DNA from: a virus | Lineage: Duplodnaviria; Caudoviricetes | Length of the DNA: 64,000 nucleotides | Virus record (IMG/VR): IMGVR_UViG_3300043410_001333 | Location: 2,170 to 66,169 of that record | Direction: 5' to 3' (one strand) | Shown: positions 37,581 to 51,942 of the stretch, one piece after another | How the letters are laid out: every line of letters begins with the position of its first letter | How positions within the stretch are numbered: position 1 is the first letter of the stretch | Made by a program: the position numbers and the translations under genes | The notes under the pieces: generated by a model | Databases searched by the model: none | Seen by the model: only the letters and a program-made list of their open reading frames with translations | What the model was told of the DNA's origin: nothing

Positions 37581-37712
37581 AATATAACCCTTTATTTTTT
37601 AGTAGCGCGCATGGTATATTTCAACTTGTGTCGAGAGGAAACAACCCCGTGCTATGTTCCACATAGTCGGTTTCTAGGAGAAATACAGTGACTTATATCA
37701 CGTATATCCGGG

Positions 37713-37931
37713 ATGCCGGTGCCTGAGAAAAGCGGGAATGGCCATGAGAATGCGAATGCTCAAATGCGAAAAGACGAAAAACGTGAAAAGATCGTCCAGA
37801 TCGCAAATCTGGCTAAGAGTGCCGTGCCGTGGATAGCGCTGAAACTTGGAGAGGCGTTTCTTTCGACCATTGGCGCAGTCATTGGCGGCGCCGTGGCGGC
37901 GTATGTGCTGCGCTATATTGCTGGGCCGTAA
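37713..37931 (+). CDS. small membrane protein (lysis-related?)
   Basis: C-terminal hydrophobic helix. Confidence 0.5.
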   Translation: MPVPEKSGNGHENANAQMRKDEKREKIVQIANLAKSAVPWIALKLGEAFLSTIGAVIGGAVAAYVLRYIAGP

Positions 37932-38001
37932 GCAGACACGGCTGCCGCTACTGCACACTTTTTACATTGTCGTTCATTATTACATCTGTAGCGGTGTGGT
38001 T

Positions 38002-38250
38002 ATGACAAGTGTCAATATTCTCGGTAGTCTTGTTCTAGCCGCTTTCGCTTTGGCGGTGTATCTGGTGTTGTCACGTTCCATTCCGCAAGGCTCTACAGAC
38101 GCCGCCAACGTGATGCTTGGCACGCTGGGCGCCATGGCACTCACAGTGGTTCAGTATACGTTCGGGTCCAGCGCTGGAAGTGCGGCTAAAGCGGCTCAGT
38201 TGGCCGAAGCACAGAAGACTTTGCTGGAAAAGACAAACCCGCAGGCGTAA
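38002..38250 (+). CDS. holin-like 2-TM protein
   Basis: Two hydrophobic helices and Y.FGSS.GS..K motif. Confidence 0.6.
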   Translation: MTSVNILGSLVLAAFALAVYLVLSRSIPQGSTDAANVMLGTLGAMALTVVQYTFGSSAGSAAKAAQLAEAQKTLLEKTNPQA

Positions 38251-38260
38251 CCTGCGGGTT
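38236..38260. terminator. hairpin at the convergent module boundary
   Basis: 10-bp perfect stem AACCCGCAGG/CCTGCGGGTT where + and - modules meet. Confidence 0.65.
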
Positions 38261-38265
38261 CGGTG

Positions 38266-38547
38266 TCAAAGAAACGGACGGATAAACGCTTCGCCGTCCG
38301 ATGTCAGATTGACGAATATGCTACGTGCGTCGCTGAAATTGGCTGTACGCTCAACCAGCGGCGGCTGTATTTCGTGTTCAAGTCGGTTAACCGCCTTGAC
38401 AACGGCTGACCTGGATAGCCCTAACCTTTCAGACAGATCCTTGACAGTGCGCTTGCGCACATTGCATTCAGCGAGAATGGCAACCTGACTGAATGTCAGA
38501 TTGACCCCGCGGCGGACAATCGTCAGGACTCCCAGTTCAAACTGCAT
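38266..38547 (-). CDS. MarR-type winged-helix DNA-binding protein
   Basis: LTFSQVAIL..TVKDLSERLGLSRSAVVKAVNRL..LVER..DARSIFVNLT.DG. Confidence 0.8.
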   Translation of the reverse strand: MQFELGVLTIVRRGVNLTFSQVAILAECNVRKRTVKDLSERLGLSRSAVVKAVNRLEHEIQPPLVERTANFSDARSIFVNLTSDGEAFIRPFL

Positions 38548-38900
38548 CAGGCTACCGCGCGACCGTTGCGGAACTGCTTGACGATAGTAGCATTGGCTGG
38601 CGTAGCCCAACCCGTGCCGTTCAGTGCGTCCAGAATGGTGTCCAGACTGGCCTTGTCGGCATGGTGCTGGCGCACCACAGCTTCCATATACAGGCCGTCG
38701 TCAGCGGTGGTGCCGTCGCGAGCGGCCTTGTTGGCGATGGTCTGCGACGAATAGAATCGCGTTACAGGCGCAGACGGCAAACCGGCATCCGCGTCGGCAC
38801 GGTTGCCCGTGAAACTTACACTGTAGGTCTTTGGCATGAAGGGGTCCGAAAAGGGCGGCGGTCTATTAAACCGCCGCGAGTTGGTAGGTGTGGATGACAT
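38547..38900 (-). CDS. hypothetical protein (start uncertain)
   Basis: ORF whose stop overlaps the MarR ATG. Confidence 0.5.
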   Translation of the reverse strand: MSSTPTNSRRFNRPPPFSDPFMPKTYSVSFTGNRADADAGLPSAPVTRFYSSQTIANKAARDGTTADDGLYMEAVVRQHHADKASLDTILDALNGTGWATPANATIVKQFRNGRAVA

Positions 38901-38959
38901 GCGTAGCAAGTCGCTACAGGTCGCGTATAGCCCAAGTAACGAAAGGTGTCAACGAAGTC

Positions 38960-41900
38960 CTAGCCAAACCGCGTTGAAATATCGCAAGCGGCTGCGATGG
39001 GTAGCCCGGCTGTCCAGGAGGGCTGGGTTACTAGGCACTGTTCAAATTCTGGCAGACGGCGTTCGGCGTATTCGCGGGGTATTTCAGCCGTGATAGAGTC
39101 ATGCACATGTAATACGATAGGAAATCCCGCGTCATACATATTACAGATTGCAGTAGCAAGCATGTCTGCAGCTATCGCCTGAACGCAATTAGACACTATA
39201 AACGGTTGTCCTTCCTTAGTTCTTACTGTGAAACGGTGATTAGGCCCTGCGTTTAGAATATCGTAAACTTCCCTAAACTCCCCGGAGGCGCAAACATTAA
39301 CTGTTCCGATAATCCTTGGTTCGCGCGGTAAATAAGAGTAGCTTTGTTTATTCCAGATAATTCTACGGCTTCTGCTACTAGCATCGGTCCGCGCGGAGTG
39401 TTTATCGTGTGGTTGCTTCGCTTGTTTCGCATTTGCGTACGACGAGTAGCCCAACGACAGTTCTCGCGTGAATACCCTCGTGAGTTGTCTATGCGATCCA
39501 ACGATAGTCCTTTCACATAATCTTTCCCTATGTCTGTCCAAAATATGTCGAAATTTTTCCACTCCGGACAAACAGTTATCCCGCGCCCTCCGTAATTTTT
39601 CCAACTGACGTTTTTTGTGTTGTAACATCTTGCGTGCATAGCTTTCCATATTTGATACACAGGCAGTTTGCATTTCCCGTGTGTTATCGCTTTTTTCCCG
39701 GCGCGCTTTAAGTCTGAAGTTTGACATCCGCAAGATTGCAGACGGTCTATAGTAAACGCCCGAACTGTTAGCTGGCGTGTATTCCCGCACTGACATCTTG
39801 CTAACCACACTGCCCTTCGGCTGTCCGACCCTAAATATCTTTCTGCCGTCAGGATACCTGTCTGGTAACCAGTGATGTCTAGCGAATGACGCGGTAGCTT
39901 CTCTCGCGCTTCCTTCAGAAGCATTTTTCCAACTAGCATTTATCAAAACCTTATGATCCGGAGTTATGTTTACTCCATCAAAATCTATTGTTTTTTGTTT
40001 ACCTCTATGAATGAGTCCATCATGGCTAACCCACCTATGACCGTCCCATAGAAGATCACGCCTAGTAACGTTTACTATAGGTACCCACCCCCTCGACGTT
40101 AATACATCCGTGTCTTCGGCTAAACAATTTTCCGTTGCTAACCCGCGCCAGAATGTTCTACGAAATATTGCACGTCCTTTGATTGTTAACATAGTCAAAT
40201 CTAAAGTTTTTTTAGGTGATCCGTCGTCCCAAAAACCCTGTTCTAGTCTAGGCGCCCAGTAGCGCATAACACGCCCAGACGGAAGACGACACATCAAACA
40301 ATTACCGTCCATACACCATGCTATATTGTGGAGGGGAGCTACGCTGAATGTAGACCCCGGATACATAACTGCGTTCACGGCAGCTTCTAAATTGGCGTTC
40401 CAAAAATTCACCAACATAGGATTGTCGGCTCGGTAACTCGCGACAATCGGAGCGCCTTCTTCCTTCGCGATCCGCAGCCCGTAGTTCATAGCCGCTGGGA
40501 TGAACGCGTTCACACCCCCAGCAAAACCCAAGAACAATGTCATGACCTTGCCAATCTGGCGTTCTGTTTTGGTCAACTCGTGTGGCAGTTTGCCGTAGGT
40601 GGGCGCGGCCTGGGCACGGTAGATGTCTTCACCGCGGCGGAACACTTCAACTTTGTCTAGCTGCTGTGCAAGCCACACTGGGATTCGTGCTTCAATCTGC
40701 GAGAAATCTCCGTTCAGGAACATATGACCTTCGCGCGCTGTCAGCGTACGTCGCAGCATGCGCCCGATCCACGGCAGCACACCTTCTACATAAGTGCGTT
40801 TCTGTGCGTCCTCGCGGGTCCATGTATAGAGCGTTTCTATTTCATCCCTATCACCGCGACGGCCGACTTCGATAGCGTTGCGCAACGCCATATCAGATAG
40901 CCGCTCAAACTCTTTTTTCTTTACTTTCGGATTAACTCCTGTTATCAACTCCACTTCATCCGGGTTGGCAACAACATCGCGGACGAAATTGTGCGGCTGC
41001 CACGCAGCCCCTGAAAATCGCCCTGTGCTTTGCGCGCCGAACAATATCAAAGCACCCCGCAACCGTCCGTCCGGGCTCATAGACGACAACATGCGTCGCA
41101 GCTTCTTGACGGACGCTTTGGCAGCTTCTGCGCGCCATTCCAGTGCCTGCCTGCAGTGATCGGGCACATCGTCGCGCGCCAGCAAATCGGCAATATCGGA
41201 CTTACGCAGCCGGTAAGCTATCTTCTTACCGTTGTCTTCGTCGTCCTCGTCTTCTTCCTCCGGTTCGACATCGATACCCGCTGAACCCTTCTTGGGCAAC
41301 ACAACGCCGTTGTCCATCAGCCAGACTTTGAGTTTTTCAATATTGGACGTGGACGGCACAGCGCCGCTCGTTAGCTTACGTATCTCCGCATCCAGCCGCT
41401 TGGTTTCTTCCGTAGCGGCTTTCTCCAACCCGCGCACCAGTTCAACGTCCATAAGAATGCCACGGTCGTTAATCTCGCGGTCAATCTCGCGCATCCTGTC
41501 CCACGGCGGCGTCGTGAACCATGGTGGCAAACGCTTTAGCGTTTCTTCCTCCATGATCGTGTCCTGGATACAGCGGTTCGTCAGCCATTCCAGGTCAGCA
41601 CCTTGGATAACTGGTGTCTTGTTCTTATTCGTTACACGCCGAAGAAGGTTGTTGTCTTTCAAATTTGATACATAATTAACCCCTACAGCTTTGGCGCAAG
41701 CGTCAAGCGCGCGGGGTAAGTTAGCTCCTGCGGCAAAATGCATGGAATCCAACCATTGCTCCGGTTTAACCGCAGGAAACCTATAGCGACGAGTTAAAAT
41801 TATATCCCATGCAAAACGATCGAAAAAAGTTACGTTCCACCCCGACAGCAAACCCCCGCTGTTCACGTGGTCAACCAGATCCTGCGGCGGCGGTTCGCCT

Positions 41901-42055
41901 TTATGCCATACACGCGGCGGTGACGGATCGCCTAGCGGGTGATAAGCAAACAGTATAACGTCTGTGTCAGGATCATTCAGGTATGCCACAGCGCCGACCT
42001 TTTTAAGATCGGCGCTGGCGTGAGTTTCTACGTCAAACGAATATACAGCGGTCAT
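38960..42055 (-). CDS. family A DNA polymerase precursor with one intein
   Basis: Exo I DVET, TGRFSG, motif A DFSQIEAR, motif B RQIGK..L..G, motif C LHVHDSI; intein between ATEN and CVQAIAAD. Confidence 0.92.
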   Translation of the reverse strand: MTAVYSFDVETHASADLKKVGAVAYLNDPDTDVILFAYHPLGDPSPPRVWHKGEPPPQDLVDHVNSGGLLSGWNVTFFDRFAWDIILTRRYRFPAVKPEQWLDSMHFAAGANLPRALDACAKAVGVNYVSNLKDNNLLRRVTNKNKTPVIQGADLEWLTNRCIQDTIMEEETLKRLPPWFTTPPWDRMREIDREINDRGILMDVELVRGLEKAATEETKRLDAEIRKLTSGAVPSTSNIEKLKVWLMDNGVVLPKKGSAGIDVEPEEEDEDDEDNGKKIAYRLRKSDIADLLARDDVPDHCRQALEWRAEAAKASVKKLRRMLSSMSPDGRLRGALILFGAQSTGRFSGAAWQPHNFVRDVVANPDEVELITGVNPKVKKKEFERLSDMALRNAIEVGRRGDRDEIETLYTWTREDAQKRTYVEGVLPWIGRMLRRTLTAREGHMFLNGDFSQIEARIPVWLAQQLDKVEVFRRGEDIYRAQAAPTYGKLPHELTKTERQIGKVMTLFLGFAGGVNAFIPAAMNYGLRIAKEEGAPIVASYRADNPMLVNFWNANLEAAVNAVMYPGSTFSVAPLHNIAWCMDGNCLMCRLPSGRVMRYWAPRLEQGFWDDGSPKKTLDLTMLTIKGRAIFRRTFWRGLATENCLAEDTDVLTSRGWVPIVNVTRRDLLWDGHRWVSHDGLIHRGKQKTIDFDGVNITPDHKVLINASWKNASEGSAREATASFARHHWLPDRYPDGRKIFRVGQPKGSVVSKMSVREYTPANSSGVYYRPSAILRMSNFRLKARREKSDNTREMQTACVSNMESYARKMLQHKKRQLEKLRRARDNCLSGVEKFRHILDRHRERLCERTIVGSHRQLTRVFTRELSLGYSSYANAKQAKQPHDKHSARTDASSRSRRIIWNKQSYSYLPREPRIIGTVNVCASGEFREVYDILNAGPNHRFTVRTKEGQPFIVSNCVQAIAADMLATAICNMYDAGFPIVLHVHDSITAEIPREYAERRLPEFEQCLVTQPSWTAGLPIAAACDISTRFG
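39188..40126 (-). mobile_element. intein (313 aa) in DNA polymerase
   Basis: Block A CLAEDTDVLT, block B ITPDHKV, block F VYDILNAGPNHRF, block G FIVSN followed by +1 Cys. Confidence 0.92.
39253..39939 (-). CDS. HNH homing endonuclease nested in the +1 frame of the intein
   Basis: DITG..W..RCQCG..SCGC..THG..IWKAMHARC..NYGGRGITVCPEW..LSLDRIDNSRGYSRENCRWAT; TAAGG 9 nt before ATG. Confidence 0.88.
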   Translation of the reverse strand: MLVGKMLLKEAREKLPRHSLDITGYQTGILTAERYLGSDSRRAVWLARCQCGNTRQLTVRAFTIDRLQSCGCQTSDLKRAGKKAITHGKCKLPVYQIWKAMHARCYNTKNVSWKNYGGRGITVCPEWKNFDIFWTDIGKDYVKGLSLDRIDNSRGYSRENCRWATRRTQMRNKRSNHTINTPRGPMLVAEAVELSGINKATLIYRANQGLSEQLMFAPPGSLGKFTIF

Positions 42056-42066
42056 ACGTAATCCTG

Positions 42067-42099
42067 AAACAAAACAAGCGGGAGCATAACCCCCGCTTG
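42067..42099 (-). terminator. intrinsic terminator just upstream of the polymerase
   Basis: Minus strand CAAGCGGGG-N7-TCCCGCTTG-TTTTGTTT. Confidence 0.65.
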
Positions 42100-42122
42100 C
42101 AATGTAAATACAAACGTATTCG

Positions 42123-42350
42123 TTAGCGGGTAATGGACTTGACCGTCCACATAACCGCTTCCTCTACCTTCGTCTTAGCCAGCGAAATTTCACGGCTAGG
42201 ACCAACGTCGTCCAGCAGTTCAAGGAACGCCAAACCATGGTCCTTGATCGCCTTTATCTGCTGCTTCTCAGCATCGGAAAGCACACGGTATTCGTGACGC
42301 ATAACGTTGTTTGCAACGCGGGCGTCAGATGTGGAAGACACCGTTTCCAT
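42123..42350 (-). CDS. Acb2/Tad1-like anti-defence nucleotide sponge (putative)
   Basis: YRVLSDAEKQQIKAIKDHG resembles the Acb2 N-terminal helix; REISLAKTKVEEAVMW resembles the Tad1-type helix. Confidence 0.65.
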   Translation of the reverse strand: METVSSTSDARVANNVMRHEYRVLSDAEKQQIKAIKDHGLAFLELLDDVGPSREISLAKTKVEEAVMWTVKSITR

Positions 42351-43225
42351 TACGCGCTCCTACCTGCAAACGGAGGGAACCCCGCACCGCCAGTCGGCGC
42401 CGCAAAAGCACCCTGCGGGACAGCCCCACTCTGCACAGGCGCGGTAGCGGCCGCCCCCGGCACACCGATAGGCTGCGACCCCCACGACGCTGCGCCACCC
42501 GGCGACGCAGCACCGTCAGCCTTCGGCAACTGGCCGAAAGCTGCCTGCGCAGCGCGCATCGGGTCATACGAACCCATCTTGTCTCCGCCCTTGGCAAACT
42601 GCACGGCGTTCAGCAGCACGCCGATACCACGGTTCGGAATAGACTGACCCGGCTGCGGAAACGCAAACACCGTAACCTGCGCACGAGCGTAGCAGCCGCT
42701 GTAGATCATGGACGGATCAAGCGGACGGCCTTCTTCGTTCAGACACACAGGCTGCTGGGATTCGCCCTTCTTGCTGACAGCCGTCACACCCATGTTCAGA
42801 ACGAACAGGCCACGGTATGGCTCATACTTGGCCGGGTCCTTGGTGTAGAACGCATCACCCTGACGCAGCGGGTTGTGCAAACCACCCTGTTCACGGGTCA
42901 GATACTGCAGCATCATCTCCCCGTTCATCATAACCATTTCGTCCGGCTTTTGCGGATTCGGACGGTTTTCGCCGGGCCAGCGGTGGTTGGCCACCATACA
43001 GATGGCCTTCCAAAGATCACCGCAATGTTCGGGTGCCAGCAGCAGCGTCATGCTGAAGCGCGGTTCCTGTCCAGGCTGTGCCGCACGGGCCTTAGCCAGA
43101 GTAACATACGACGCGCGACCGATAGGCGTCGTCAGACGAACATTACCGTACTTCGGATCAAGAACAAGTTCCTGTGCGGGGGCAGCGCAAGCAGCGCTGA
43201 AAAGATAATCATCGCGAGTAGACAT
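42350..43225 (-). CDS. ssDNA-binding protein (DUF2815/gp2.5-like)
   Basis: RASY..FSMTLL..PLRQGD..IYSGCYAR..GIGVLLNAVQF..GD. Confidence 0.85.
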   Translation of the reverse strand: MSTRDDYLFSAACAAPAQELVLDPKYGNVRLTTPIGRASYVTLAKARAAQPGQEPRFSMTLLLAPEHCGDLWKAICMVANHRWPGENRPNPQKPDEMVMMNGEMMLQYLTREQGGLHNPLRQGDAFYTKDPAKYEPYRGLFVLNMGVTAVSKKGESQQPVCLNEEGRPLDPSMIYSGCYARAQVTVFAFPQPGQSIPNRGIGVLLNAVQFAKGGDKMGSYDPMRAAQAAFGQLPKADGAASPGGAASWGSQPIGVPGAAATAPVQSGAVPQGAFAAPTGGAGFPPFAGRSA

Positions 43226-43241
43226 ACAAAATCCTAGATAT

Positions 43242-44534
43242 TTACTGTGAAGTTAATGCTTGGGTGCCACTACCCTTTTCGGGAGTAGTGCGTTTCAAGT
43301 ATAGCGCACCAAGCGGACGCTCTACAAGATCGTTCATCAAAAAACGCTTGTCCTTCGGCAAAAGTTTTTCAGCTTGTGCCGGGGACACCAGTTTCTGAGG
43401 CGGATACAGATCAGTCAGACTTGCGCCTGCCTTACGCAAGGTGTTAGCCGCTGACTGCGGATCAACCCACGCGCGGTTGCCCTGCCGCTGTCCCAGTTCC
43501 CAGCCGGGAACCGCCGCTCCTGCCTGCAACAACTTCATGGCGCGATCTTCGACCGCTTCAATCCAGGCGTCGTATACCTTACGGCGTTCAAGCACTGTTG
43601 CGATAGCTTCAACGCCCATCAAGGATGGTTCAACCAACACGGGCGCTTCCTTGGGGATAGGTGGCATCGGACTTGTGGCCTTCAACGCAGCCGATACCAT
43701 CCCACCGCGACTGGCACCAACAACCGCCATACCTGACGCCTGTAACGCGGGACAGATAGATTTGGCGGGACACCAACGGCACCACTTGCCGGTAGGATCT
43801 ACCGACAGCGACGGGTTTTCATCAAGTGCCGCGTCAAATGCCGATACAACCTTACCGGCAAAATCAATCAGCAAATCGTCAGGATGAAAGATGTGGCTAC
43901 GAACGCGGTCATTCTCGTCGCGTGAGCGCGGTTGGATGACGACCGATTCCACTTCTTCCCAACCACCATCTACGCCAAATGTGACCAGTCCCATCAGCGC
44001 GTAGTCGAGCAACTGCGGTGAATCACCTTCGACGCGTACGCCCTGACCGTACTTCAAGTCCATGATGGTCAGTTTGCGCGCCTTCTTGTCCACCAACGCC
44101 ACGTCCGCCGTTCCGCGGTTTTGCTGCAGAACAATATCGGACGGATCAAGCGGCGCTAGGGACAAAAAATATTCAAGGTGCTTTTCGGTGCTGTGAGTAA
44201 TCTTGTCTTCAACGACGCTAACAGCAAACTTGACGGCTTCCTCCATCTCCGCATCGACAAGCCAATCTTCGCCTGTCTTCTCGTCAATCTTGATGCGCCG
44301 ACCTGTCCATTCTTCCGGCATGCGGATTTCTGACAATGCTTCGTTGAACACCAGATGCGCCGCCGTGCCTTCCTTGGCAAACGACGAACTGGTGCGATCC
44401 CGCGGCAGAGTTGATGCAAGACTGACCGAACCTGGACAGTTCAGCCAGCGCGACGCCGACGAAGGGCGAAACAACGCCTCTCCGTCAGCCGCTGCTACGT
44501 AGCGGTTAAACCGCTCCAAACGCTCTGGCGTCAA
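43242..44534 (-). CDS. Cas4-like PD-(D/E)xK exonuclease (DUF2800)
   Basis: PSSASRWLNCPGS, EGTAAH, GTAD..DLKYG, QL..YA, IQPR, CRWCPAK..C. Confidence 0.88.
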   Translation of the reverse strand: MTPERLERFNRYVAAADGEALFRPSSASRWLNCPGSVSLASTLPRDRTSSSFAKEGTAAHLVFNEALSEIRMPEEWTGRRIKIDEKTGEDWLVDAEMEEAVKFAVSVVEDKITHSTEKHLEYFLSLAPLDPSDIVLQQNRGTADVALVDKKARKLTIMDLKYGQGVRVEGDSPQLLDYALMGLVTFGVDGGWEEVESVVIQPRSRDENDRVRSHIFHPDDLLIDFAGKVVSAFDAALDENPSLSVDPTGKWCRWCPAKSICPALQASGMAVVGASRGGMVSAALKATSPMPPIPKEAPVLVEPSLMGVEAIATVLERRKVYDAWIEAVEDRAMKLLQAGAAVPGWELGQRQGNRAWVDPQSAANTLRKAGASLTDLYPPQKLVSPAQAEKLLPKDKRFLMNDLVERPLGALYLKRTTPEKGSGTQALTSQ

Positions 44535-45283
44535 AGCTGCAACTCAGCCAGGATTTCCATCGCAAGCCGTTCGCGGTGTTCGGCCGGAACCTGTTCCAGC
44601 AGCGTCCAAGGCGCTTTCTCCGTGCCATCCTGCCACTGACGACGCCGCATGATCTGAAACGCAAAACCTGTCTTGGCTTTGTTTGCCTCAGCAATAACCG
44701 CGCGTAGATCCTCTACCGTAAAAGTACGGTCCGTCTCCGCTGCTGTGGACGTAACAGGGGGCATCGCTGCGGGCTGAACCTGCGACTGTGCGACCGGCGG
44801 CGTAAACACAGGCGTCGGCGCGACAGTAGCAGCACCCGGCGCCGGGAACGACGGCATCGTGTTGGTTGTGCTAGGCTGGAACATCGGCGGGGGCGCGGAT
44901 GCGACCGACTGCTGGAACGACGCGGAAGACATAAGCGTGTTTTCCGCGATACCGTAACCTATCGCTACGTCTGGTGTCGTCTCGGGCGCTGTCGTCTCTG
45001 CTTCCGGTGCAGGAGCCGTTTCCGCTACCTTCTTGGCGTTGCTGGGGCGTCCGCGCTTCTTCACGGGTGTCACAACAGCGGCATCCGATGCAGGGGCTGT
45101 GCGGATTTCCGGTTCGTCGCCGGTATCGTCCGTGTCAGTTTCGTCCGGAAGCGTTTCGGTAGCGGGTGTCGTCACACGGTCCGTGACAATACCGCGCGAA
45201 GCCAGCATCAGGCTCTTGGCGGCTTCGGAAACAAGATTGGGATATTCGGTTTCGAGTGTATCAAACTTGATTGTTACGCGCAT
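44531..45283 (-). CDS. hypothetical Pro/Ala/Thr-rich protein with AT-hook-like KKRGRP
   Basis: 250 aa ORF within the replication operon. Confidence 0.65.
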   Translation of the reverse strand: MRVTIKFDTLETEYPNLVSEAAKSLMLASRGIVTDRVTTPATETLPDETDTDDTGDEPEIRTAPASDAAVVTPVKKRGRPSNAKKVAETAPAPEAETTAPETTPDVAIGYGIAENTLMSSASFQQSVASAPPPMFQPSTTNTMPSFPAPGAATVAPTPVFTPPVAQSQVQPAAMPPVTSTAAETDRTFTVEDLRAVIAEANKAKTGFAFQIMRRRQWQDGTEKAPWTLLEQVPAEHRERLAMEILAELQL

Positions 45284-45296
45284 TGTATATCCTAAG

Positions 45297-46619
45297 TCAG
45301 TGCGTGGCTGTTAGAAGATCAAGAAACGATTGAGCGGCTACATGTTTACGTTGGATGACCGTAGCCATTATTTCATCCAACCAGCAACCAGAAGCCTGCA
45401 ACACATCGGCCGTTACAGGTTTTTCCTGGGTGATACGGTGAACTCGTTTGATAGCCTGAAACAAAGCGGTAGCTGTCCACGGTTGTTCGGCGACGATGGC
45501 GTTCTGTGATCGTGTCAGCGTCAAACCCATCCCACCTGCCTGCGTCTGCACCAGCAGCGCGTCAAGAGCGCCCTTTTGGAACCAATCCACAGCGGCTGTC
45601 AACTGCTTTCGCGTGCTGCTGCCGTCAATATAGGACACCCGCCGCCCTTGATCGGCTAGTGACTGCCCGATCAGGTCCCTGACACTTGTATGTTGGAAGA
45701 AAATGACTGAGGGTTTTGCGGTTTCCATGACGTGCTGAGTGACAGCCGCTGATTTGGCCACACCTAGTATGCGACGCACGCGCGACATTTCGTTGTCACG
45801 TATTTCGTCTTGCGTTTCCAGCATATCCGACACTTGCTGCGGTGTCCATTTTTCAAGAACCGGCGCTATTTCGTCGTATACGCTATCGTCTATATAAACC
45901 GGCTTGTTTTGTATAGTCAGCGGCGGAAGGTCGATACCGGCCGATTGAAGTGTACGCCGCAGGCAGAAAGGTCGAAACACAGCGGCTAGTTCTTCCGGGT
46001 TTTTCACACCCGACGCCTTCCAGCCTTCACGACCATCGGGACGCAATTCCGCAAAGCGCCTTACGAAGTCGAACCATGTAGGGGCGTCCCCGTAAAACCG
46101 CCGCAACGGCCCATAAGATATAGGGTACAAGTCAGCCGCTGAATTGACAATAGGCGTGCCGGTCAGAAACCAGATATGATTCGCACGTGTCCATAGGCCC
46201 TGATCCGCCAGCAGCACGCCAGTTCGCTGCGCTTCAAAACGACGAAACTCGGCCGATTCATCAACTATGATCGTGTCAAACGGATCAACACCAAACAGTT
46301 CGTAGGCCCTGCGCTTTTGCACAAGAGCGGCGTGAGACACGATACATACGCATGGACCCTTGGCCGGTATAACATCCTGTGGCGACGCTATGACTACCAC
46401 GGGGCGCTCTATATCCTGCTGCTGTTCGGCGGTGTTCGCCCAGTGATTTCGCACCAGCGCTGGCGATAAGATAAGGACGCGCTCGGCTTTGATGCGGTCA
46501 GCAGCCGCTATGGCTTGGCCTGACTTACCGACACCCGGTTCGTCAAGCAGCAGCGCAACACGACGTTCTGCCAGGAAATCCGCGCCGATTTCCTGATGCG
46601 GCATCAGTTTGTATTTCAA
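45297..46619 (-). CDS. SNF2-like superfamily 2 helicase
   Basis: PHQ, DEPGVGKS, IVDES, LTGTP, GGMGLTL, QAIKRVHRI. Confidence 0.88.
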   Translation of the reverse strand: MKYKLMPHQEIGADFLAERRVALLLDEPGVGKSGQAIAAADRIKAERVLILSPALVRNHWANTAEQQQDIERPVVVIASPQDVIPAKGPCVCIVSHAALVQKRRAYELFGVDPFDTIIVDESAEFRRFEAQRTGVLLADQGLWTRANHIWFLTGTPIVNSAADLYPISYGPLRRFYGDAPTWFDFVRRFAELRPDGREGWKASGVKNPEELAAVFRPFCLRRTLQSAGIDLPPLTIQNKPVYIDDSVYDEIAPVLEKWTPQQVSDMLETQDEIRDNEMSRVRRILGVAKSAAVTQHVMETAKPSVIFFQHTSVRDLIGQSLADQGRRVSYIDGSSTRKQLTAAVDWFQKGALDALLVQTQAGGMGLTLTRSQNAIVAEQPWTATALFQAIKRVHRITQEKPVTADVLQASGCWLDEIMATVIQRKHVAAQSFLDLLTATH

Positions 46620-46810
46620 AAGATAGTGGCGTACAGACGTTCGCGCGCTTCTTCGATCTGCGCATACTCATGATCGGTTAGATATCCTGTATGCGCAAAC
46701 CCTGGCTGTCCAACATCTTCCCGACGCGCAAGAAGAACATCAACCCAACGCGCGCCACACGAACATACACGTCCGTTAGGTGTTTCCGAGAACAAGTGTC
46801 CTGCAATCAT
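46616..46810 (-). CDS. hypothetical protein
   Basis: 64 aa, coupled to both neighbours. Confidence 0.55.
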   Translation of the reverse strand: MIAGHLFSETPNGRVCSCGARWVDVLLARREDVGQPGFAHTGYLTDHEYAQIEEARERLYATIF

Positions 46811-47232
46811 TGCACGGGTTCCAGAGGGATTACTGTTACGTCAACGCGGGGTGTGTCGCTGTAAAACTTGTCTGCTTCAATACGGACAACTTGAGCATCA
46901 TCACGCCACACAATGCAGTTAATAGCGTCTTTTACAAGTTTGATGATATTGTCCAGATCCGGCTTTGATGTAGGACGTTGCCAACTATCCATAGCCGCTT
47001 GGCGTTTCTTGGCGCTCCACGACACAGGAATAGGCATGTGGGCGGTCAGTTGAAACTTCAAAGGCCCTTCCAGTGGCGGTCTACCGGCCATGGCAGCGGC
47101 CGCAAACATGCGGACGGCCCCTTCCTCCGTTCTGGTCTGTTGGGGCGTAAACGCTACAGCGTGCCCAGCCACTTTACCGATACGAGGACGCTGCTTACCG
47201 CGGGGTTGTCCTGGAATACTAAATGATATCAT
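46807..47232 (-). CDS. rusA: RusA-family Holliday junction resolvase
   Basis: KQRPR..KPDLDNIIKLVKDAIN.IVWRDDAQVV..K.Y. Confidence 0.9.
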   Translation of the reverse strand: MISFSIPGQPRGKQRPRIGKVAGHAVAFTPQQTRTEEGAVRMFAAAAMAGRPPLEGPLKFQLTAHMPIPVSWSAKKRQAAMDSWQRPTSKPDLDNIIKLVKDAINCIVWRDDAQVVRIEADKFYSDTPRVDVTVIPLEPVQ

Positions 47233-47235
47233 ATA

Positions 47236-47457
47236 CTAATCTAAACTTTTGAATTCCAAATAGGGGAATTTTTTCCCAGCAACATGCTGTTCGTGTCCGC
47301 AAGCATTACACTTATGCGGAAACATGGGAAAATTGATATTAACCACAGCGCCTTCCGAATATTCCAACTCGCCTTCGCGGCAATGAGGACACAACGCCTT
47401 CACCTTCACAGGACGCATCGGCACTTCTACTACCCTCGGATCGTCGTCGGTCATCAA
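47236..47457 (-). CDS. small Zn-ribbon protein
   Basis: CPHC..CNAC. Confidence 0.55.
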   Translation of the reverse strand: MMTDDDPRVVEVPMRPVKVKALCPHCREGELEYSEGAVVNINFPMFPHKCNACGHEQHVAGKKFPYLEFKSLD

Positions 47458-47574
47458 TCACAATCAAAATAAAACGGTTGGCAACCGCCGCTGGGCTACG
47501 GTAGAAACGGTTCGCGCGTTTCCGCTCGGCCCCGGCAGACGGGCGCGTTCCCTCCATATACAGTTTTTACGGAA

Positions 47575-48003
47575 ATGGCAACCACTATGGAACACGACCT
47601 GAAAAGCCTGCCGGACGGCTTTGCGGACCTGATGAACGGCACTAAGACTTTTGAATTGCGTCTGGATGATCGTCCGTATGCCGTGGGTGACACGCTGCGG
47701 TTGCGGGAGTGGGTAGACGACGCCTACAGCGGCCGGACCGTCGTCAAGCGCATCAGCCACACGCTGCGGGGTTGCGAACATTTGCCCAAGGGCTTCGTCC
47801 TGATGGCCCTGGTGGACGCTAACAGCAACATTACCGATTTGTTAGATGACATGAGCGCCGTCATCCGAGTAGCCGAAGGCCGTGTCACCGATGACACGTC
47901 CTACACGATGCGCGAACGGTGGTTGACACTCGCTGACAAGGGGCGCGCTATGGTTAATAATCTGAAATCGCAAAACATTTTTATGGTGGCGGTGCAGAAG
48001 TAA
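47575..48003 (+). CDS. ASCH/PUA-like (DUF3850) protein
   Basis: HDLK..F..GTKTFELRLDDRPYAVGD.L.LREW. Confidence 0.8.
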   Translation: MATTMEHDLKSLPDGFADLMNGTKTFELRLDDRPYAVGDTLRLREWVDDAYSGRTVVKRISHTLRGCEHLPKGFVLMALVDANSNITDLLDDMSAVIRVAEGRVTDDTSYTMRERWLTLADKGRAMVNNLKSQNIFMVAVQK

Positions 48004-48344
48004 TGCGCGTGTTGGTGTGCGGCGGCAGAGACTACAGTGACTGGCAACACGTATGGGCTGTGTTAGACGAATATCATTCGTTGTATAACATAGACACTGT
48101 TATCCACGGCGCCGCGCGTGGCGCGGATACTTTAGCCAGCGACTGGGCGCATAATCGCAATGTGCGAGTAGAACCTTATCGCGCACAGTGGAACACGCAC
48201 GACAACGCTGCTGGTCCTATTCGCAACAAGCAAATGTTGGACGAAGGCAAACCCGATATTGTTATCGCGTTTCCAGGCGGAAGGGGCACAGAAAACATGA
48301 TCCAGCAAGCAACCGCTGCTGGTGTTCAGGTGGGGAGAGTATAA
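48003..48344 (+). CDS. YspA/SLOG-family protein (DUF2493)
   Basis: MRVLVCGGRDY..IHGAARGAD..AGPIRNKQML..AFPGGRGT. Confidence 0.85.
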   Translation: MRVLVCGGRDYSDWQHVWAVLDEYHSLYNIDTVIHGAARGADTLASDWAHNRNVRVEPYRAQWNTHDNAAGPIRNKQMLDEGKPDIVIAFPGGRGTENMIQQATAAGVQVGRV

Positions 48345-48348
48345 TTTG

Positions 48349-50325
48349 GTGCCGAGTGTCACGCTCCTTACCGGAGATGCTTTAGACCAACTCCGCAATC
48401 TTCCTGATGAAAGTGTGCATTGTTGTGTGACTTCCCCTCCTTATTTCGGGTTGCGGTCATATTTACCCGGCGTAGTTCGGTTAAAATTGAATATACCCGA
48501 CAACGTTTCAGCGGCGGTTATTGAAAAATTAACTGCGTATGGTATAATGCCTGTTTATAGTAATACAAATGAAATAAATGGTAGTTCGTGCGTAAATCAA
48601 ACGGTCAGTTTGCCGCAGGGTATCACTGGCGGAAGCACCAAGCATTCCGCGATAGAGAATGGCTTATCTACAACTACACAGACTTGGGGCGAAGTTCGGG
48701 AGACATCGCAGCAGAATTTGGTACAACCGGAGAAGCTATTTTATTTTGGTTGCGGAAGTACGACATTCCTCGCAGATCAATTTCCGAGGCGCGAAGTACT
48801 AAAAAATGGGGACTTAGCGGACAGAACAACCCCATGTGGAACAAACGCGGAGAACTTAACCACCGATGGCTTGGTGGAGTTACCGCCGAAAGGCAAGCGT
48901 TTTACGCAAGTTACGAGTGGAAACAAGCGTGTTCGACGGTCTGGAAACGCGACGACGCCAGATGTCGTAGATGCGGGCTGCACAAAAAAGATCAGCCAGA
49001 CTTGTCTTACCACATCCACCACATTATTAGTTTCGCCAACGTTGAAACACGAGCCGATCCGTCAAACCTCGTGTTGTTGTGTGAAAAATGCCACCGCTTT
49101 GTCCACTCTCGCGCTAACACAAACCGCGAATTTATTCTTAAAACGTGATATTCCTTGTAACTTGCTGCGCTATTTTGAACCGGCGGAAATAGGTTTAGAA
49201 CCCACACCCGACGAATATATCGCGCGTCTAGTTAGTGTGTTTCGTGAAGTGCGACGTGTGTTACGCAGCGACGGGTCGTTTTGGTTGAACATAGGCGATT
49301 CGTACGCGCGTAATCCATCAAAAGGTGGTAGCGGCCCTAGTGGTAAGAACAGCGCGTTCTACGGAGATTCCTATACGGATGCTCAAACAGCCGCCGATAG
49401 ATCATTCGGAGAAGCCAAAGAAAAAGACCTGCTAATGATACCAGCCGCTGTCGCCATCGCTTTACGCGCGGACGGTTGGTATCTTCGGTCCAACATCGCG
49501 TGGACCAAGGGTTCGGTTATGCCGGAAAGTGTGAAAGACCGACCTAGCAGCGCGCACGAAAGCATATTCATGCTGACCAAGACGACGCGATATTTCTATG
49601 ACGGGTTTGCTGTTGCTGAGTCCCCCGCTGAATCTTCCCTAAAACGGATAACGCAACCCAACTTCAAAAATCAAAAAGGTGGCGAGAAGGATTACGGAAA
49701 CGGCACTAACAGCAACCGAAGCGCGCGAAAGACCCTGGAAAACTTTGCGGCTAATCCAACCAGACAACTCCGCAACCACTGGCACATCAACCCTGAACCG
49801 CTGCGAGACGCACACTTCGCCGCTTTCCCAACCCGTCTTGCTAGTCGCTGTGTCCAAGCAGCTACGTCAGAATACGGCTGCTGCGGGGTGTGCGGGGCGC
49901 CGTATAAGCGTATCATCGCCCTAGGTGAACCGGATGCAGAACATATGGCCGCGTGCGGGGCTGACAGCAGCGGTGGTTATGATGGTGTATCGCAGAAAGA
50001 CTACGCCTCCGCGCAAGCCCAGGACGCTTCCGCTACCAAAGCCCGTATTCTGGCGGGTATGCGCAAGAAGGAAACGGTCGGTTGGGAAAAGACTTGCGCT
50101 TGCGATTGCACTGACGTAGTGCCCGCTTTGGTGCTGGACCCGTTTTCAGGAGCCGGAACGACAGCGCTGTGTGCTGTCAGATTAGGACGCGATGCTATCG
50201 GTATCGACCTTAACAGCGAATACCACGAAATAGGTGTGCGGCGTATCGCCAATCCAGACGCAAAGTGTCTGGACACAAACGGCGAACGACTTCCATTCAG
50301 AGAAGGAAAGGTGTTTGTGTCTTGA
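48349..50325 (+). CDS. N6A/N4C DNA methyltransferase (beta class) with a large in-frame insertion
   Basis: VTSPPY catalytic motif; EIGLEPTP..WLNIGDSY resumes after the insert; HFAAFP; LDPFSGAGTT. Confidence 0.85.
   Translation: MPSVTLLTGDALDQLRNLPDESVHCCVTSPPYFGLRSYLPGVVRLKLNIPDNVSAAVIEKLTAYGIMPVYSNTNEINGSSCVNQTVSLPQGITGGSTKHSAIENGLSTTTQTWGEVRETSQQNLVQPEKLFYFGCGSTTFLADQFPRREVLKNGDLADRTTPCGTNAENLTTDGLVELPPKGKRFTQVTSGNKRVRRSGNATTPDVVDAGCTKKISQTCLTTSTTLLVSPTLKHEPIRQTSCCCVKNATALSTLALTQTANLFLKRDIPCNLLRYFEPAEIGLEPTPDEYIARLVSVFREVRRVLRSDGSFWLNIGDSYARNPSKGGSGPSGKNSAFYGDSYTDAQTAADRSFGEAKEKDLLMIPAAVAIALRADGWYLRSNIAWTKGSVMPESVKDRPSSAHESIFMLTKTTRYFYDGFAVAESPAESSLKRITQPNFKNQKGGEKDYGNGTNSNRSARKTLENFAANPTRQLRNHWHINPEPLRDAHFAAFPTRLASRCVQAATSEYGCCGVCGAPYKRIIALGEPDAEHMAACGADSSGGYDGVSQKDYASAQAQDASATKARILAGMRKKETVGWEKTCACDCTDVVPALVLDPFSGAGTTALCAVRLGRDAIGIDLNSEYHEIGVRRIANPDAKCLDTNGERLPFREGKVFVS
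48521..48548 (+). promoter_or_regulatory. internal sigma70 promoter for the nested HNH gene
   Basis: TTGAAA-N16-TATAAT with perfect TGn extended -10, 40 nt before GTG 48588. Confidence 0.7.
48588..49148 (+). CDS. HNH endonuclease nested in the +2 (-1) frame of the methyltransferase
   Basis: HTH-like N-terminus, G..NPMW..N.RW.GG, RDDARCRRC..HIHHI..NLVLLCEKCHRFVH. Confidence 0.88.
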   Translation: MRKSNGQFAAGYHWRKHQAFRDREWLIYNYTDLGRSSGDIAAEFGTTGEAILFWLRKYDIPRRSISEARSTKKWGLSGQNNPMWNKRGELNHRWLGGVTAERQAFYASYEWKQACSTVWKRDDARCRRCGLHKKDQPDLSYHIHHIISFANVETRADPSNLVLLCEKCHRFVHSRANTNREFILKT

Positions 50326-51191
50326 CAATACGTTCTTCCGTTATTCTGCACAGCAAAAACCATGTAGGCGTTCCGCTGATAACCATGAACGCCTATTACC
50401 CTCGCATAATCCATGCTGAGCATCTTCGTCACAGATGTTTCTCGTTTTCCGTATCTTCCAGCCGCGCCATATCGGTTCATAAACTGATATCATCTGTTGA
50501 AGACGATCCCTATGTGCCGTTCGTGTGGCTGAAGACCGCTGGCCGCGGTATGGTGGCGGGTGAGGAACTGAAAGGCGCAGGACGCGTCATCGCGTACGAT
50601 TCATATATGCGCGCCATGGAAGCCGCGCTGACCGAAGCCCGTATCCTGGCCGCGCAGGAAGTCAGCAAGCAACAAGTCAACCGCATTCTGGAACCTTACG
50701 CCCATGTCAACGTCATCGTCAGCGGCACGTCATGGGCCAATTTCTTCGCGCTACGGCGGCACCCAGCCGCTGACCCGGTGTTTCAGGAACTGGCGAACAG
50801 TATGTGGAGCGCGATCCACAGCAGCGAATCGCAGCTAGTCGCTGATGGGAATCTACACCTTCCGTGTCTTAGTGAGGATGATACGGATCTTGTGTGGGTT
50901 TTGAATAACATGCGTCGCACTGAACATAATAACGCCTTGATGATGATTTGCGCCGCTCGGTGTGCTGGCGGCAGTTACACACTGGACGGCGTACGAACAC
51001 GCGATCCAGGTAAGGACTACGCACTCGGCAAAACGCTTACGGAAGGATCGCCTATGCACGCAAGCCCGCTGGAACACGTAGCTATTGCTGATAGTTGCAT
51101 GATGTATACACATCAGCATGGTAATTATTTCGGATTTAGACAATTCCGCAAGACGTTTGCTAACGAATGTGTGGAGGACGACTATCTGTGA
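50322..51191 (+). CDS. thyX: flavin-dependent thymidylate synthase
   Basis: RHRCFSFSVSSSRAI matches RHRxxSxxxxSxR; KQQVNRILEP; NFFALR; HASPLEH. Confidence 0.82.
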   Translation: MTIRSSVILHSKNHVGVPLITMNAYYPRIIHAEHLRHRCFSFSVSSSRAISVHKLISSVEDDPYVPFVWLKTAGRGMVAGEELKGAGRVIAYDSYMRAMEAALTEARILAAQEVSKQQVNRILEPYAHVNVIVSGTSWANFFALRRHPAADPVFQELANSMWSAIHSSESQLVADGNLHLPCLSEDDTDLVWVLNNMRRTEHNNALMMICAARCAGGSYTLDGVRTRDPGKDYALGKTLTEGSPMHASPLEHVAIADSCMMYTHQHGNYFGFRQFRKTFANECVEDDYL

Positions 51192-51367
51192 ATAAGCCGG
51201 AAAAAATAACCATACCGAACGGCACTATAATAAACGTCCTTAGTGTTGACCCAGATAAACAACACTGTGAGATAGCGATAGGCGATCCGCTTAATGACGT
51301 TTTTCGGGTTAGCGTAGACGAACTTATAAAACTAAAACTTGAAATTATAAAGCGGGGGTATGAATGA
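51188..51367 (+). CDS. hypothetical protein
   Basis: GGAGG RBS; GTGA coupling. Confidence 0.55.
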   Translation: MNKPEKITIPNGTIINVLSVDPDKQHCEIAIGDPLNDVFRVSVDELIKLKLEIIKRGYE

Positions 51368-51942
51368 AAATCATCCTTCTGAACGGACCACCCCGCAGCG
51401 GCAAGTCAACCTGCGCGCAGTTGCTGCAAGCGCACTTCACCCCGCAGCGGTGTGCGATTTTGGGTTTTACGCTGCACCTTAAACGCATGGTCCATGCTAT
51501 CTACGGGCTTGCGGCTGATACCGATCCGGAAGCCTTTGACGGTATCAAAGATACGTCCAACCCTTTGTTCATGGGTTTGTCGCCGCGGCAGGCGTATATA
51601 CTTTGGACAGACACACTGAAAGAAAAACACGGCAAGGAGTTCTTTGGCCGGATGTTTCTGCGCGTCGCTGAGCAATATGGCGTCGATATCGTCGTTGTGC
51701 CGGACGCCGGATATACGGATGAACCAGCCGCTGTTGTGGAGCGCCTGGGCGAAGAAAACGTATTGCTGGCGCGTATCGACAGACACGGCACCAGCTTCAA
51801 TGGCGACACCCGCACGCGTCTGGACCTGTCTAGTATGGGTGTAGCGGCGGTAGATGTGTTTAACGTTCCCTATGACGAATACCACATGGTCCGCGGTGTG
51901 TTGACCGCGATCAGAAAGACTTTTGGAGAAGAATACAAATGA
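51364..51942 (+). CDS. deoxynucleoside monophosphate kinase
   Basis: LNGPPRSGKST P-loop; F..LK; SPRQAYI; VVPD. Confidence 0.75.
   Translation: MKIILLNGPPRSGKSTCAQLLQAHFTPQRCAILGFTLHLKRMVHAIYGLAADTDPEAFDGIKDTSNPLFMGLSPRQAYILWTDTLKEKHGKEFFGRMFLRVAEQYGVDIVVVPDAGYTDEPAAVVERLGEENVLLARIDRHGTSFNGDTRTRLDLSSMGVAAVDVFNVPYDEYHMVRGVLTAIRKTFGEEYK

What the first reader, a model, noticed from the sequence alone, without database searches (positions are those of the whole stretch)
39253..49148. Shared strategy: homing endonuclease genes overprinted on host genes without breaking them
Seen: two different HNH subfamilies, in opposite frame offsets (+1 in the polymerase intein, -1 in the methyltransferase), each lie entirely within a stop-free host frame. 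Each has its own expression signal (SD-like element or promoter). Known: homing endonucleases avoid harming hosts by sitting in introns, in frame in inteins, or between genes. Inference: dual coding is a further route, and two independent cases in one genome suggest it is recurrent. Gene callers would miss it because they suppress nested ORFs.
Basis: inference. Interest (0 to 1): 0.88.

Follow-up and report, generated by a model that had tools for sequence, protein, structure and literature searches.

The report
Two overprinted homing-endonuclease genes, one phage
This phage carries two selfish DNA-cutting-enzyme genes written in a second reading frame inside a polymerase intein and inside a methyltransferase gene; both layouts are real, but the idea is already published and only the intein case is clearly kept by selection.

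Summary
Both nested ORFs exist as described. 39253-39939(-) lies +1 inside the Pol A gene and 48588-49148(+) lies -1 inside the N6/N4 methyltransferase gene. Both host frames are stop-free.

The polymerase case is solid. A mini-intein with a Hint fold has a roughly 210-aa unfolded linker. That linker is overprinted by a separately started PacI-like HNH-family gene. Synonymous shuffles never reproduce the open host frame (0 of 5000). The same +1 layout recurs in APSE phages, Shewanella SFCi1, Caulobacter phages and IMG/VR contigs, and once in a helicase intein. One relative is a fractured version.

The methyltransferase case is weaker. Its insert belongs to a large HNH cassette family that sits at one fixed site and normally breaks the gene into two ORFs. 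Of 81 loci, only this window has a single open frame, which matches the shuffle null of 1.2-2.2%. However, the window and its nearest relative have both lost the C-piece start codon, which suggests read-through is used.

The concept is already in print (2015, 2025, 2026 listing), and this scan has met both layouts on other DNA.

The parts
38960..42055 (-). Family A DNA polymerase gene (1031 aa precursor, 718 aa after intein removal)
   Evidence: Pfam DNA_pol_A E 8.4e-16; tblastn to phage polymerases
39188..40126 (-). Intein, 313 aa (precursor residues 644-956). It starts with Cys, has TPDH in block B, and ends in Asn followed by Cys.
   Evidence: Residues 1-72 and 283-313 of the host-frame model have pLDDT 64-85. 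The top 27 VIA rows are all inteins or Hint domains; the best is 6riz_A, Z 12.3, rmsd 3.0 over 110 aa.
39281..39910 (-). Host-frame linker of the intein: Arg/Ser-rich, predicted unfolded, kept only stop-free
   Evidence: pLDDT under 50 for model residues 73-282; composition R 32 and S 26 of 229; 0 stops against a shuffle mean of 10
39253..39939 (-). Nested +1-frame gene for a 228-aa PacI-like HNH-family (His-Me finger) homing endonuclease: Zn beta-domain, nuclease core and C-terminal HTH
   Evidence: PHROG 374 E 2.4e-58. Model pLDDT 83. PacI 3m7k_A Z 6.3, rmsd 2.1 over 73 aa; I-TevI DNA-binding domain Z 3.4. Weak I-HmuI alignment.
39949..39952 (-). SD-like AAGG, 9 nt before ATG 39939. A second ATG at 39924 lies in the conserved GWK-codon context.
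   Evidence: Sequence. The start context is conserved in 7 genomes.
48322..50325 (+). N6/N4 (DPPY-class) DNA methyltransferase ORF, 667 aa, read through the cassette
   Evidence: Pfam N6_N4_Mtase E 7.4e-35. The insert-free relative P0128 is 85.5% identical over 387 aa.
48463..49188 (+). Mobile HNH cassette (242 host-frame codons) that replaces the 5 codons GIDGQ of the empty site. Ends are uncertain by a few codons.
   Evidence: Alignment with uninterrupted homologues and P0128. The same site is occupied in 81 loci. A foreign contig diverges at 48455.
48463..48555 (+). Cassette-encoded N-tail peptide (LPGVVRLK...GIMPV) fused to the MTase N piece
   Evidence: Conserved as a peptide in relatives. 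Codon-position variability is 0.49/0.39/0.67.
48521..48548 (+). Sigma-70-like promoter TTGAAA-16-TGgTATAAT inside the N-tail codons
   Evidence: 11 of 12 matches plus TG, the best site in 11.7 kb. No comparable element seen by eye at the matching place in L104 (sequence printed); no promoter scan was run on L104.
48588..49148 (+). Nested -1-frame gene for a 186-aa HTH + HNH endonuclease (GTG start, TGA stop)
   Evidence: Pfam HNH E 8.7e-11. 416 relatives, up to 74% identical. Against L104, differences by codon position are 46/27/99.
49129..49188 (+). Cassette-encoded C-head peptide (NLFLKRDIPCNLLRYFEPAE). Its usual ATG/GTG start is replaced here by GCG.
   Evidence: Codon-position variability in relatives is 0.27/0.23/0.65.

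Best explanation
There are two separate selfish elements, and they stand on different footing.

(1) Polymerase. A mini-intein sits just before the conserved Q-A-x-A-x-D motif of the family A polymerase. A free-standing-type, PacI-like HNH-family endonuclease gene lies in the +1 frame over the intein's linker. It is translated on its own from a start codon embedded in the G-W-K codons that follow splicing block B. The polymerase precursor must be read through this stretch. Selection therefore keeps the host frame free of stops, although the peptide it encodes is an unfolded linker that leaves with the intein. The endonuclease presumably cuts intein-less polymerase alleles (inferred).

(2) Methyltransferase. 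A mobile cassette has replaced five codons, six codons after the catalytic SPPY motif. The cassette consists of an N-tail peptide, an HNH gene and a C-head peptide. In nearly all relatives the cassette splits the gene into two separately translated pieces. In this phage it is in phase and stop-free and the C piece has lost its own start. The enzyme can therefore be made as one chain with a looped-out linker of about 190 aa. Whether that fusion is selected or accidental is open.
For: Intein. The host frame is open in 7 of 7 genomes with the nested gene (window, APSE-1, SFCi1, L004, L007, L017, Caulobacter RW). Shuffles reach zero stops in 0-20 of 2000 each. The offset is +1 in all of them, and the start lies at the GWK codons in all. 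L004 against L007 (93% identical, no indels): in the N-extein 109 of 129 differences fall at host codon position 3. In the overlap 22 of 40 fall at nested position 3, with host frame 9 synonymous to 28 non-synonymous and nested frame 18 to 18. The Hint fold is supported at Z 12.3, with the linker pLDDT under 50. The same unit occurs in an SNF2 helicase.

MTase. Of 81 loci at the same site, the window is the only one with 0 stops. The empty-site homologue P0128 exists. In 32 sampled split loci the N piece ends in a stop in 32 of 32 and the C piece has ATG (18) or GTG (14) at the same place in 32 of 32. The window and L104 both carry Ala there instead. In L104 the C frame is open 615 nt back through the HNH gene. 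The HNH frame is under purifying selection, with differences 46/27/99 by codon position.
Against: No expression, splicing or cleavage data exist for either element. The nested intein protein lacks the catalytic His: Arg is invariant at that place in 19 of 19 sequences. Its nuclease status rests on a modest fold match to PacI (Z 6.3). For the MTase, one open frame among 81 loci is what chance predicts (58-108 of 5000 shuffles). L104's open frame is weak evidence, since 1253 of 5000 shuffles are also open. The window promoter has no visible counterpart in L104 (by eye). Loci in the 81 were not de-duplicated. Junction coordinates were projected from ungapped ends of tblastn matches.
Confidence: 0.7

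Rival explanations
1. The open MTase frame in this window is a coincidence. The enzyme is either dead or made in pieces from other starts (for example the GTG that the source's gene caller used for a 414-aa product), as in its relatives.
For: 1 of 81 loci is open, against a null of 1.2-2.2%. Phase across the family is random, 28/28/25. The collection's own gene call for this window is a 414-aa C piece (P0007).
Against: The canonical C-piece start is missing in the window and in L104 but present in 32 of 32 split relatives. The usual N-piece stop is also missing. The exteins are intact and 85.5% identical to an uninterrupted homologue.
Confidence: 0.3
2. The MTase insert is a self-splicing intron carrying an HNH gene, removed at the RNA level, so the host frame is irrelevant.
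For: Insert length is random modulo 3, and stops occur in 79 of 81 loci. This is the pattern expected of introns.
Against: There is no group I or II intron match in the window or in 20 related loci, both at E up to 1. Only about 13-45 nt follow the HNH stop. The flanking insert parts are conserved as in-frame peptides with third-position variability. Stops and restart codons are conserved.
Confidence: 0.1
3. The nested intein ORF is no longer a nuclease. It is a DNA-binding relic or a regulator, so the intein is not mobile now.
For: The catalytic His is replaced by Arg in 19 of 19 family members. There is no Pfam hit. No insert-free reads were seen in 4 runs.
Against: PacI also lacks the His and uses a loop tyrosine (PMC5714182, passages read). 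A loop Tyr (Y156) is invariant here. The ORF is intact in all 7 genomes and shows third-position bias. The unit sits in two different host genes. L004 and L007 share a 100% identical tract of about 600 nt at the intein's 3' end.
Confidence: 0.15
4. The nested intein protein is made by programmed +1 frameshifting as a fusion to the N-extein and Hint-N, not from its own start.
For: The offset is +1 in all 7 genomes.
Against: A start codon with a purine-rich stretch lies at the same place in all 7. The same family is mostly free-standing: 16 of 21 IMG/VR loci show no intein motifs nearby.
Confidence: 0.04

Closest known systems
Non-canonical actinobacteriophage inteins with a homing endonuclease in a separate frame (Gosselin, Arsenault & Gogarten, bioRxiv 10.1101/2025.01.02.630785; sections 8 and 15 read)
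   Same: A same-strand endonuclease ORF lies between the splicing blocks in another frame. The host frame is open. The proposed origin is invasion of an intein by a free-standing endonuclease gene.
   Different: Their case is an endonuclease VII-like gene in 'frame 3' in actinophage terminase, capsid, polymerase and ThyX genes. Here it is a PacI-like HNH-family gene in the +1 frame in Pol A (and SNF2) of phages of Gram-negative hosts, with the start built into the GWK codons.
Brucella phage terminase intein with an out-of-frame HNH gene (PMC4422536, 2015; one passage read)
   Same: An intein-associated HNH gene lies out of frame inside an essential phage gene.
   Different: The host gene is different (TerL). 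I did not compare the sequences.
APSE-1 P45/P46 (NC_000935, annotated since the 1999 genome paper, which I did not read)
   Same: This is the homologous element: same polymerase site, same +1 offset, and a nested protein 41% identical to P0002.
   Different: RefSeq annotates only the last 140 aa. The frame is open from 3509, and a GTG at 3527 gives 216 aa that include the Zn domain.
ShiLan domain / hidden HNH in mycobacteriophage methylases (Arsenault et al. 2025, PMC11855218; abstract and sections 3, 12, 18, 19, 32 read)
   Same: An insert in a phage methylase is open in the host frame and has an HNH gene in the third frame with a GTG start. No intron or intein signals are present. A short repeat of the downstream host sequence occurs at the insert's 5' end.
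   Different: In ShiLan the ORF fills the insert (start 18 bp in, stop in the last 4 bases). Here 125 nt of conserved tail codons with a promoter-like site precede the ORF and a conserved head peptide follows it. The family as a whole splits the gene. No mycobacteriophage was among the 2 records that the tblastn of P0004 found at E up to 1e-5.
Fractured genes / genes in pieces (Dassa et al. 2009, PMC2677866, passages read; Aeh1 nrdA-mobE, as cited there)
   Same: An endonuclease gene lies between two separately translated halves of a host gene. This holds for 79 of 81 MTase relatives, and for locus L006 of the polymerase intein family.
   Different: In the window both host genes are single ORFs. 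The MTase cassette has no split intein; it has two short conserved peptides instead.

Membership tests
Intein (Hint domain) | N-terminal Cys/Ser, block B T-x-x-H, C-terminal Asn followed by Cys/Ser/Thr | tested here: met
   C644, TPDH, and ...FIVSN followed by C957. The same residues occur in L004, L007 and L017.
Intein (Hint domain) | Hint fold | tested here: met
   The model's N and C parts together align to mini-inteins: 6riz_A Z 12.3, 4o1r_A Z 12.1, and ranks 1-27 are all inteins or Hint domains. Pfam gave nothing for the window and only Hint_2 at E 0.059 for L004.
Intein (Hint domain) | Protein splicing | not testable with these tools
   Inferred from an intact essential polymerase.
Intein with out-of-frame homing endonuclease | A complete endonuclease ORF on the same strand in another frame between blocks B and F, with the host frame stop-free beyond chance | tested here: met
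HNH (Pfam PF01844), protein P0004 | Profile match above the gathering score, with the HH...N...H motif and Cys pairs | tested here: met
   42.2 bits against a cutoff of 21.4. H142, H144, H145, N160, H169, H173, C126, C129, C165 and C168 are invariant in 34 sequences.
PacI-like His-Me finger, protein P0002 | Beta-beta-alpha-metal core without the catalytic His, with a loop Tyr in its place | tested here: inconclusive
   3m7k_A Z 6.3, rmsd 2.1 over 73 aa. R149, Y156, N160 and N172 are invariant or nearly so. Foldseek gave no match at E up to 0.001. There is no activity test.
ShiLan-type hidden HNH insertion | Methylase frame open through an insert that encodes an out-of-frame HNH, without splicing signals | tested here: met
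   for the window only.
ShiLan-type hidden HNH insertion | The open host frame is the rule among members of the element family | tested here: not met
   1 of 81 loci is fully open.
Genes-in-pieces endonuclease cassette | Host gene split into two ORFs with the endonuclease gene between them | tested here: not met
   The window has one ORF. The feature is met in 79 of 81 relatives.
Group I/II intron | Match to an intron covariance model | tested here: inconclusive
   No match at E up to 1 in window 37000-52000 or in 20 related loci. ORF-bearing introns can escape these models.

The most novel reading that the evidence does not exclude
The MTase cassette is a homing element that brings its own repair kit. 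Its two conserved peptides (an N-tail of about 33 aa and a C-head of about 20 aa) would hold together the two halves of the enzyme it splits. This window would then show the next step, in which the halves were re-fused by reading through the HNH gene. With the polymerase intein family, which has both overprinted and fractured (L006) members, the two elements would show that gene-in-pieces and overprinted single-chain states interconvert.
Probability: 0.3. Interest if true: 0.7.

Novelty: new member of a known kind. Interest (0 to 1): 0.4.

Why it matters
Nested same-strand endonuclease genes are mostly missed or truncated in phage annotation. Knowing their fixed positions lets them be annotated: the start at the GWK codons after intein block B, and the cassette six codons after the SPPY motif. 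The polymerase intein family supplies natural intermediates for the old model that inteins gained their endonucleases by invasion of a mini-intein. It includes free-standing, overprinted and fractured states of one gene family. The methyltransferase cassette family offers an experimentally simple system for testing how an enzyme tolerates being cut, or being given a 240-aa loop, next to its catalytic motif. It has an empty-site allele, about 80 split alleles and one fused allele.

Tried and rejected
Assembly artefact: rejected, because contigs from runs of two further studies are 100% identical over the junctions. No joint that skips either insert was seen in the 4 runs. These are contigs, so rare insert-free variants could be lost. 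No RNA holder was listed, so nothing can be said on expression.

Close relatives of this phage: none by blastn in INPHARED and none by pattern scans of IMG/VR with P0001 or P0003. No near empty-site polymerase allele was therefore found.

The host-frame peptide of the MTase insert has no relative among 5.8 billion proteins except the window's own 414-aa call.

Foldseek of the P0002 model against PDB gave no match at E up to 0.001. Sequence searches of PDB gave only a weak I-HmuI match (E 0.22-0.36). Pfam found no intein family in the window's intein.

Complex prediction on the N-tail and C-head alignments (A5, A6) gave no verdict: score 0.26, mark 0.32. This is neither for nor against binding.

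A tblastn of a C5-group HNH against INPHARED found no mycobacteriophage at E up to 1e-8. I could not link that group to the ShiLan domain, and I never obtained the ShiLan sequence itself.

The alignment-based IMG/VR scan with A2 returned the same 21 loci as the single-protein scan. The genome-contig scan gave 4 loci that I did not analyse.

Not-in-print claims rest on searches only. Supplements were closed, and they may list further out-of-frame cases in the Gosselin and Arsenault papers.

Full report
OBSERVATION. The window is a complete IMG/VR virus record. ORF 38960-42055(-) is a family A DNA polymerase. It contains 39253-39939(-) in the +1 frame. ORF 48322-50325(+) is an N6_N4 methyltransferase. 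It contains 48588-49148(+) in the -1 (+2) frame. Over the nested stretches the host frames have no stop, while the third frames have 21 and 11. Synonymous shuffles of the nested genes reach a stop-free host frame in 0 of 5000 trials for the polymerase and in 58 of 5000 for the methyltransferase.

THE POLYMERASE ELEMENT.
- Residues 644-956 of the precursor form an intein: Cys1, TPDH, and a terminal Asn followed by Cys.
- In a model of the host-frame intein, residues 1-72 and 283-313 fold with pLDDT 64-85, while residues 73-282 score below 50.
- The folded parts together match mini-inteins. The best match is 6riz_A at Z 12.3, rmsd 3.0 over 110 residues, and the top 27 rows are all inteins or Hint domains.
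- The host-frame linker is Arg/Ser-rich.
- The +1 frame over that linker encodes P0002, which matches PHROG 374 'HNH endonuclease' at E 2.4e-58 but has no Pfam hit.
- The P0002 model (pLDDT 83) has three parts: an N-terminal beta domain with Cys pairs, a core whose best structural match is PacI (3m7k_A, Z 6.3, rmsd 2.1, 73 residues), and a C-terminal part like the I-TevI DNA-binding domain (Z 3.4).
- The family lacks the catalytic His. Arg is invariant there in 19 of 19 sequences, and a loop Tyr is invariant. In PacI a loop tyrosine replaces the His (PMC5714182, passages read). I therefore call the protein a PacI-like His-Me finger nuclease. Membership is inconclusive and activity is untested.

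CONSERVATION OF THE POLYMERASE ELEMENT.
- The same arrangement occurs in APSE-1 (P45/P46), Shewanella phage SFCi1, Caulobacter phage RW, and IMG/VR loci L004, L005 and L007. The site is the same, just before the Q-A-x-A-x-D motif, and the offset is +1.
- In L017 the unit sits in a different host gene, an SNF2-related helicase.
- In the 60 listed INPHARED rows of a tblastn with P0002, 17 place the match under an annotated DNA polymerase: 12 APSE rows, SFCi1 and 4 Caulobacter phages. There were 889 matching records in all.
- All 7 genomes analysed keep the host frame open, against 0-20 of 2000 shuffles each.
- In all 7 the nested start lies in or next to the G-W-K codons that follow block B. Those codons supply a purine-rich stretch before the ATG or GTG.
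- L004 and L007 are 93% identical without indels. In their N-extein, 109 of 129 differences fall at host codon position 3. In the overlap, 22 of 40 fall at nested-frame position 3, and 28 of 37 changed host codons are non-synonymous. The nested frame therefore carries the protein constraint, and the host frame is only kept open.
- Of 21 IMG/VR relatives of P0002, 4 are nested in an open host frame, and 16 show no intein motifs nearby by a crude motif test.
- The remaining locus, L006, is a fractured version. It has the same polymerase site and the same +1 offset, but four stops in the polymerase frame inside the overlap and an ATG just before block F.
- Annotation: the nested ORF is absent from the SFCi1 and RW records. 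In APSE-1 it is truncated to 140 aa, although the frame is open from a GTG that gives 216 aa.

THE METHYLTRANSFERASE ELEMENT.
- Uninterrupted homologues read SPPY-x-G-L-R-x-Y, then about 5 residues, then I-G-L-E.
- P0128 is 85.5% identical to the window's C-extein over 387 residues and reads SPPYFGLRNYGIDGQIGLE. It is an empty-site allele.
- The window has 242 codons in place of GIDGQ. P0004 (Pfam HNH) lies in them after 125 nt, and it stops 40 nt before their end.
- P0004 has 416 relatives, up to 74% identical.
- I fetched 59 IMG/VR and 80 metagenome loci with an alignment of these relatives. In 81 sources including the window, the HNH gene is flanked by both methyltransferase pieces at the same site.
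- Across these 81, the distance from the SPPY Tyr codon to the IGLE Ile codon is spread evenly modulo 3 (28/28/25). The HNH frame relative to the N piece is also evenly spread (27/29/25).
- The N-piece frame carries 0 stops only in the window, 1 in L104, and 2-28 in the other 79. The loci were not de-duplicated.
- The family therefore does not keep the host frame open. One in 81 is what the shuffle null predicts.
- No intron model matches the window or 20 related loci.
- In 32 sampled split loci the N piece continues into a conserved peptide (LPDGVRLK...EL..LGI.PI) and then stops.
- In the same 32 loci the C piece begins with ATG (18) or GTG (14), 20-22 codons before IGLE, followed by a conserved peptide (NIYRKSDIP.HL..YFEPAE). 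The script picked the last start codon at least 17 codons upstream.
- Both peptides vary most at the third codon position: 0.49/0.39/0.67 for the tail and 0.27/0.23/0.65 for the head. They are absent from P0128, so they belong to the cassette.
- The window and its nearest relative L104 (HNH 74% identical) both have Ala in place of the C-piece start. In L104 the C frame is open 615 nt back through the HNH gene, to an ATG just after the N-piece stop.
- This shared loss is the only argument that read-through is used in this small clade. L104's open frame alone is weak, because 1253 of 5000 shuffles are also open.

A SECOND METHYLASE GROUP.
- Twenty IMG/VR loci carry a homologue of the C-terminal half of P0004 inside long ORFs at the same offset.
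- I examined 17 distinct loci from this part of the hit list: 16 of the nested loci plus L086, a locus that one search had not flagged as nested, kept as a comparison.
- In the 16 nested loci a Zn-ribbon plus HNH ORF of about 191-227 aa lies -1 inside the host frame with 0 host-frame stops. The third frame has 10-33 stops in 15 of these loci and 2 in the G+C-rich L090. Per-locus shuffles are open in 0-37% of trials, and in 95% for L090.
- L086 has 9 stops in that frame and lies in no long open host frame.
- Four of four hosts tested are C-5 cytosine methylases.

READS. Four runs from three studies hold the stretch, and one sample may be the source. Contigs from the other two studies are 100% identical and bridge the MTase-insert junctions and the intein C-junction. 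No joint skips either insert. A foreign contig in the source sample shares only 48414-48455 and then continues as an uninterrupted L-R-D-Y-G... site. This marks the 5' edge of the cassette.

WHAT IS KNOWN.
- An intein-associated HNH gene out of frame within the brucellaphage terminase was stated in 2015 (PMC4422536, passage read).
- A 2026 preprint title reports an out-of-frame endonuclease in the cyanobacterial dnaX intein. I saw only the search listing; the text is not held.
- Arsenault et al. 2025 describe hidden out-of-frame HNH genes in mycobacteriophage methylases (PMC11855218).
- Differential loss of the APSE polymerase intein is noted in PMC7313666 (passage read).
- This scan's notes list many earlier follow-ups of overprinted intein endonucleases. 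They also list several follow-ups of the methyltransferase-splitting cassette with its two peptides, on other genomes. I reached the split-cassette reading, before reading those notes.
- My searches found no paper on this PacI-like family in Pol A inteins, and none on the splitting cassette.

VERDICT. The window adds new members of known kinds. It also adds one unusual allele, a fused single-frame copy of a cassette that otherwise splits its host gene.

Noticed in passing
L006:2179-4953: Fractured version of the same polymerase intein family. The N ORF ends in Hint-N, the HEN gene lies +1, there are four stops in the polymerase frame (4012, 4138, 4204, 4318), and an ATG lies directly before block F of the C piece. 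It is either a possible natural split intein or a pseudogene.
   Followed up: partly
L074, L078-L085, L088-L098 (IMG/VR): C-5 cytosine methyltransferase genes with a Zn-ribbon + HNH ORF of about 205 aa overprinted in the -1 frame, between the RRLTPxECERLQGFP motif and motif X. The host frame is open in all 16 distinct loci of this group that were examined. L086, kept as a comparison, is not nested and has 9 stops. No relation to INPHARED mycobacteriophages at E up to 1e-8.
   Followed up: partly
L002:3509-4177 (APSE-1) and L044:3004-3642 (Caulobacter phage RW); L003:3593-4267 (SFCi1): The nested endonuclease gene is truncated in the RefSeq annotation of APSE-1 (140 of about 216 aa). It is not annotated at all in RW and SFCi1.
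   Followed up: yes
L004:~4500-5100 against L007: A 100% identical tract spans the 3' end of the intein and the start of the C-extein, flanked by about 93% identity. It looks like a recent gene-conversion (co-conversion) tract.
   Followed up: no
L053, L063, L064, L161, L170, L178, L181: The HNH gene lies upstream of the methyltransferase start, and the N-piece frame stops right after SPPYY/SPPYW, with about 200 nt before the C-extein resumes. This is a different, ORF-less interruption at the same catalytic-site position.
   Followed up: no
window 48322-50325: The protein collection's own call for this gene is a 414-aa C-terminal product (P0007) that starts inside the cassette. The gene caller therefore did not report the 667-aa frame.
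   Followed up: partly
window 48451-48465 and 49159-49173: A short imperfect repeat of the target occurs at both ends of the cassette (G-L-R-S-Y / L-L-R-Y in the host frame). The ShiLan paper reports the same feature for its insert.
   Followed up: no
L040-L043 (bacterial genome contigs): Four relatives of the PacI-like endonuclease occur in Spirosoma, Pedobacter, Pseudonocardiaceae and Desulfovibrio assemblies. Their contexts were not examined.
   Followed up: no
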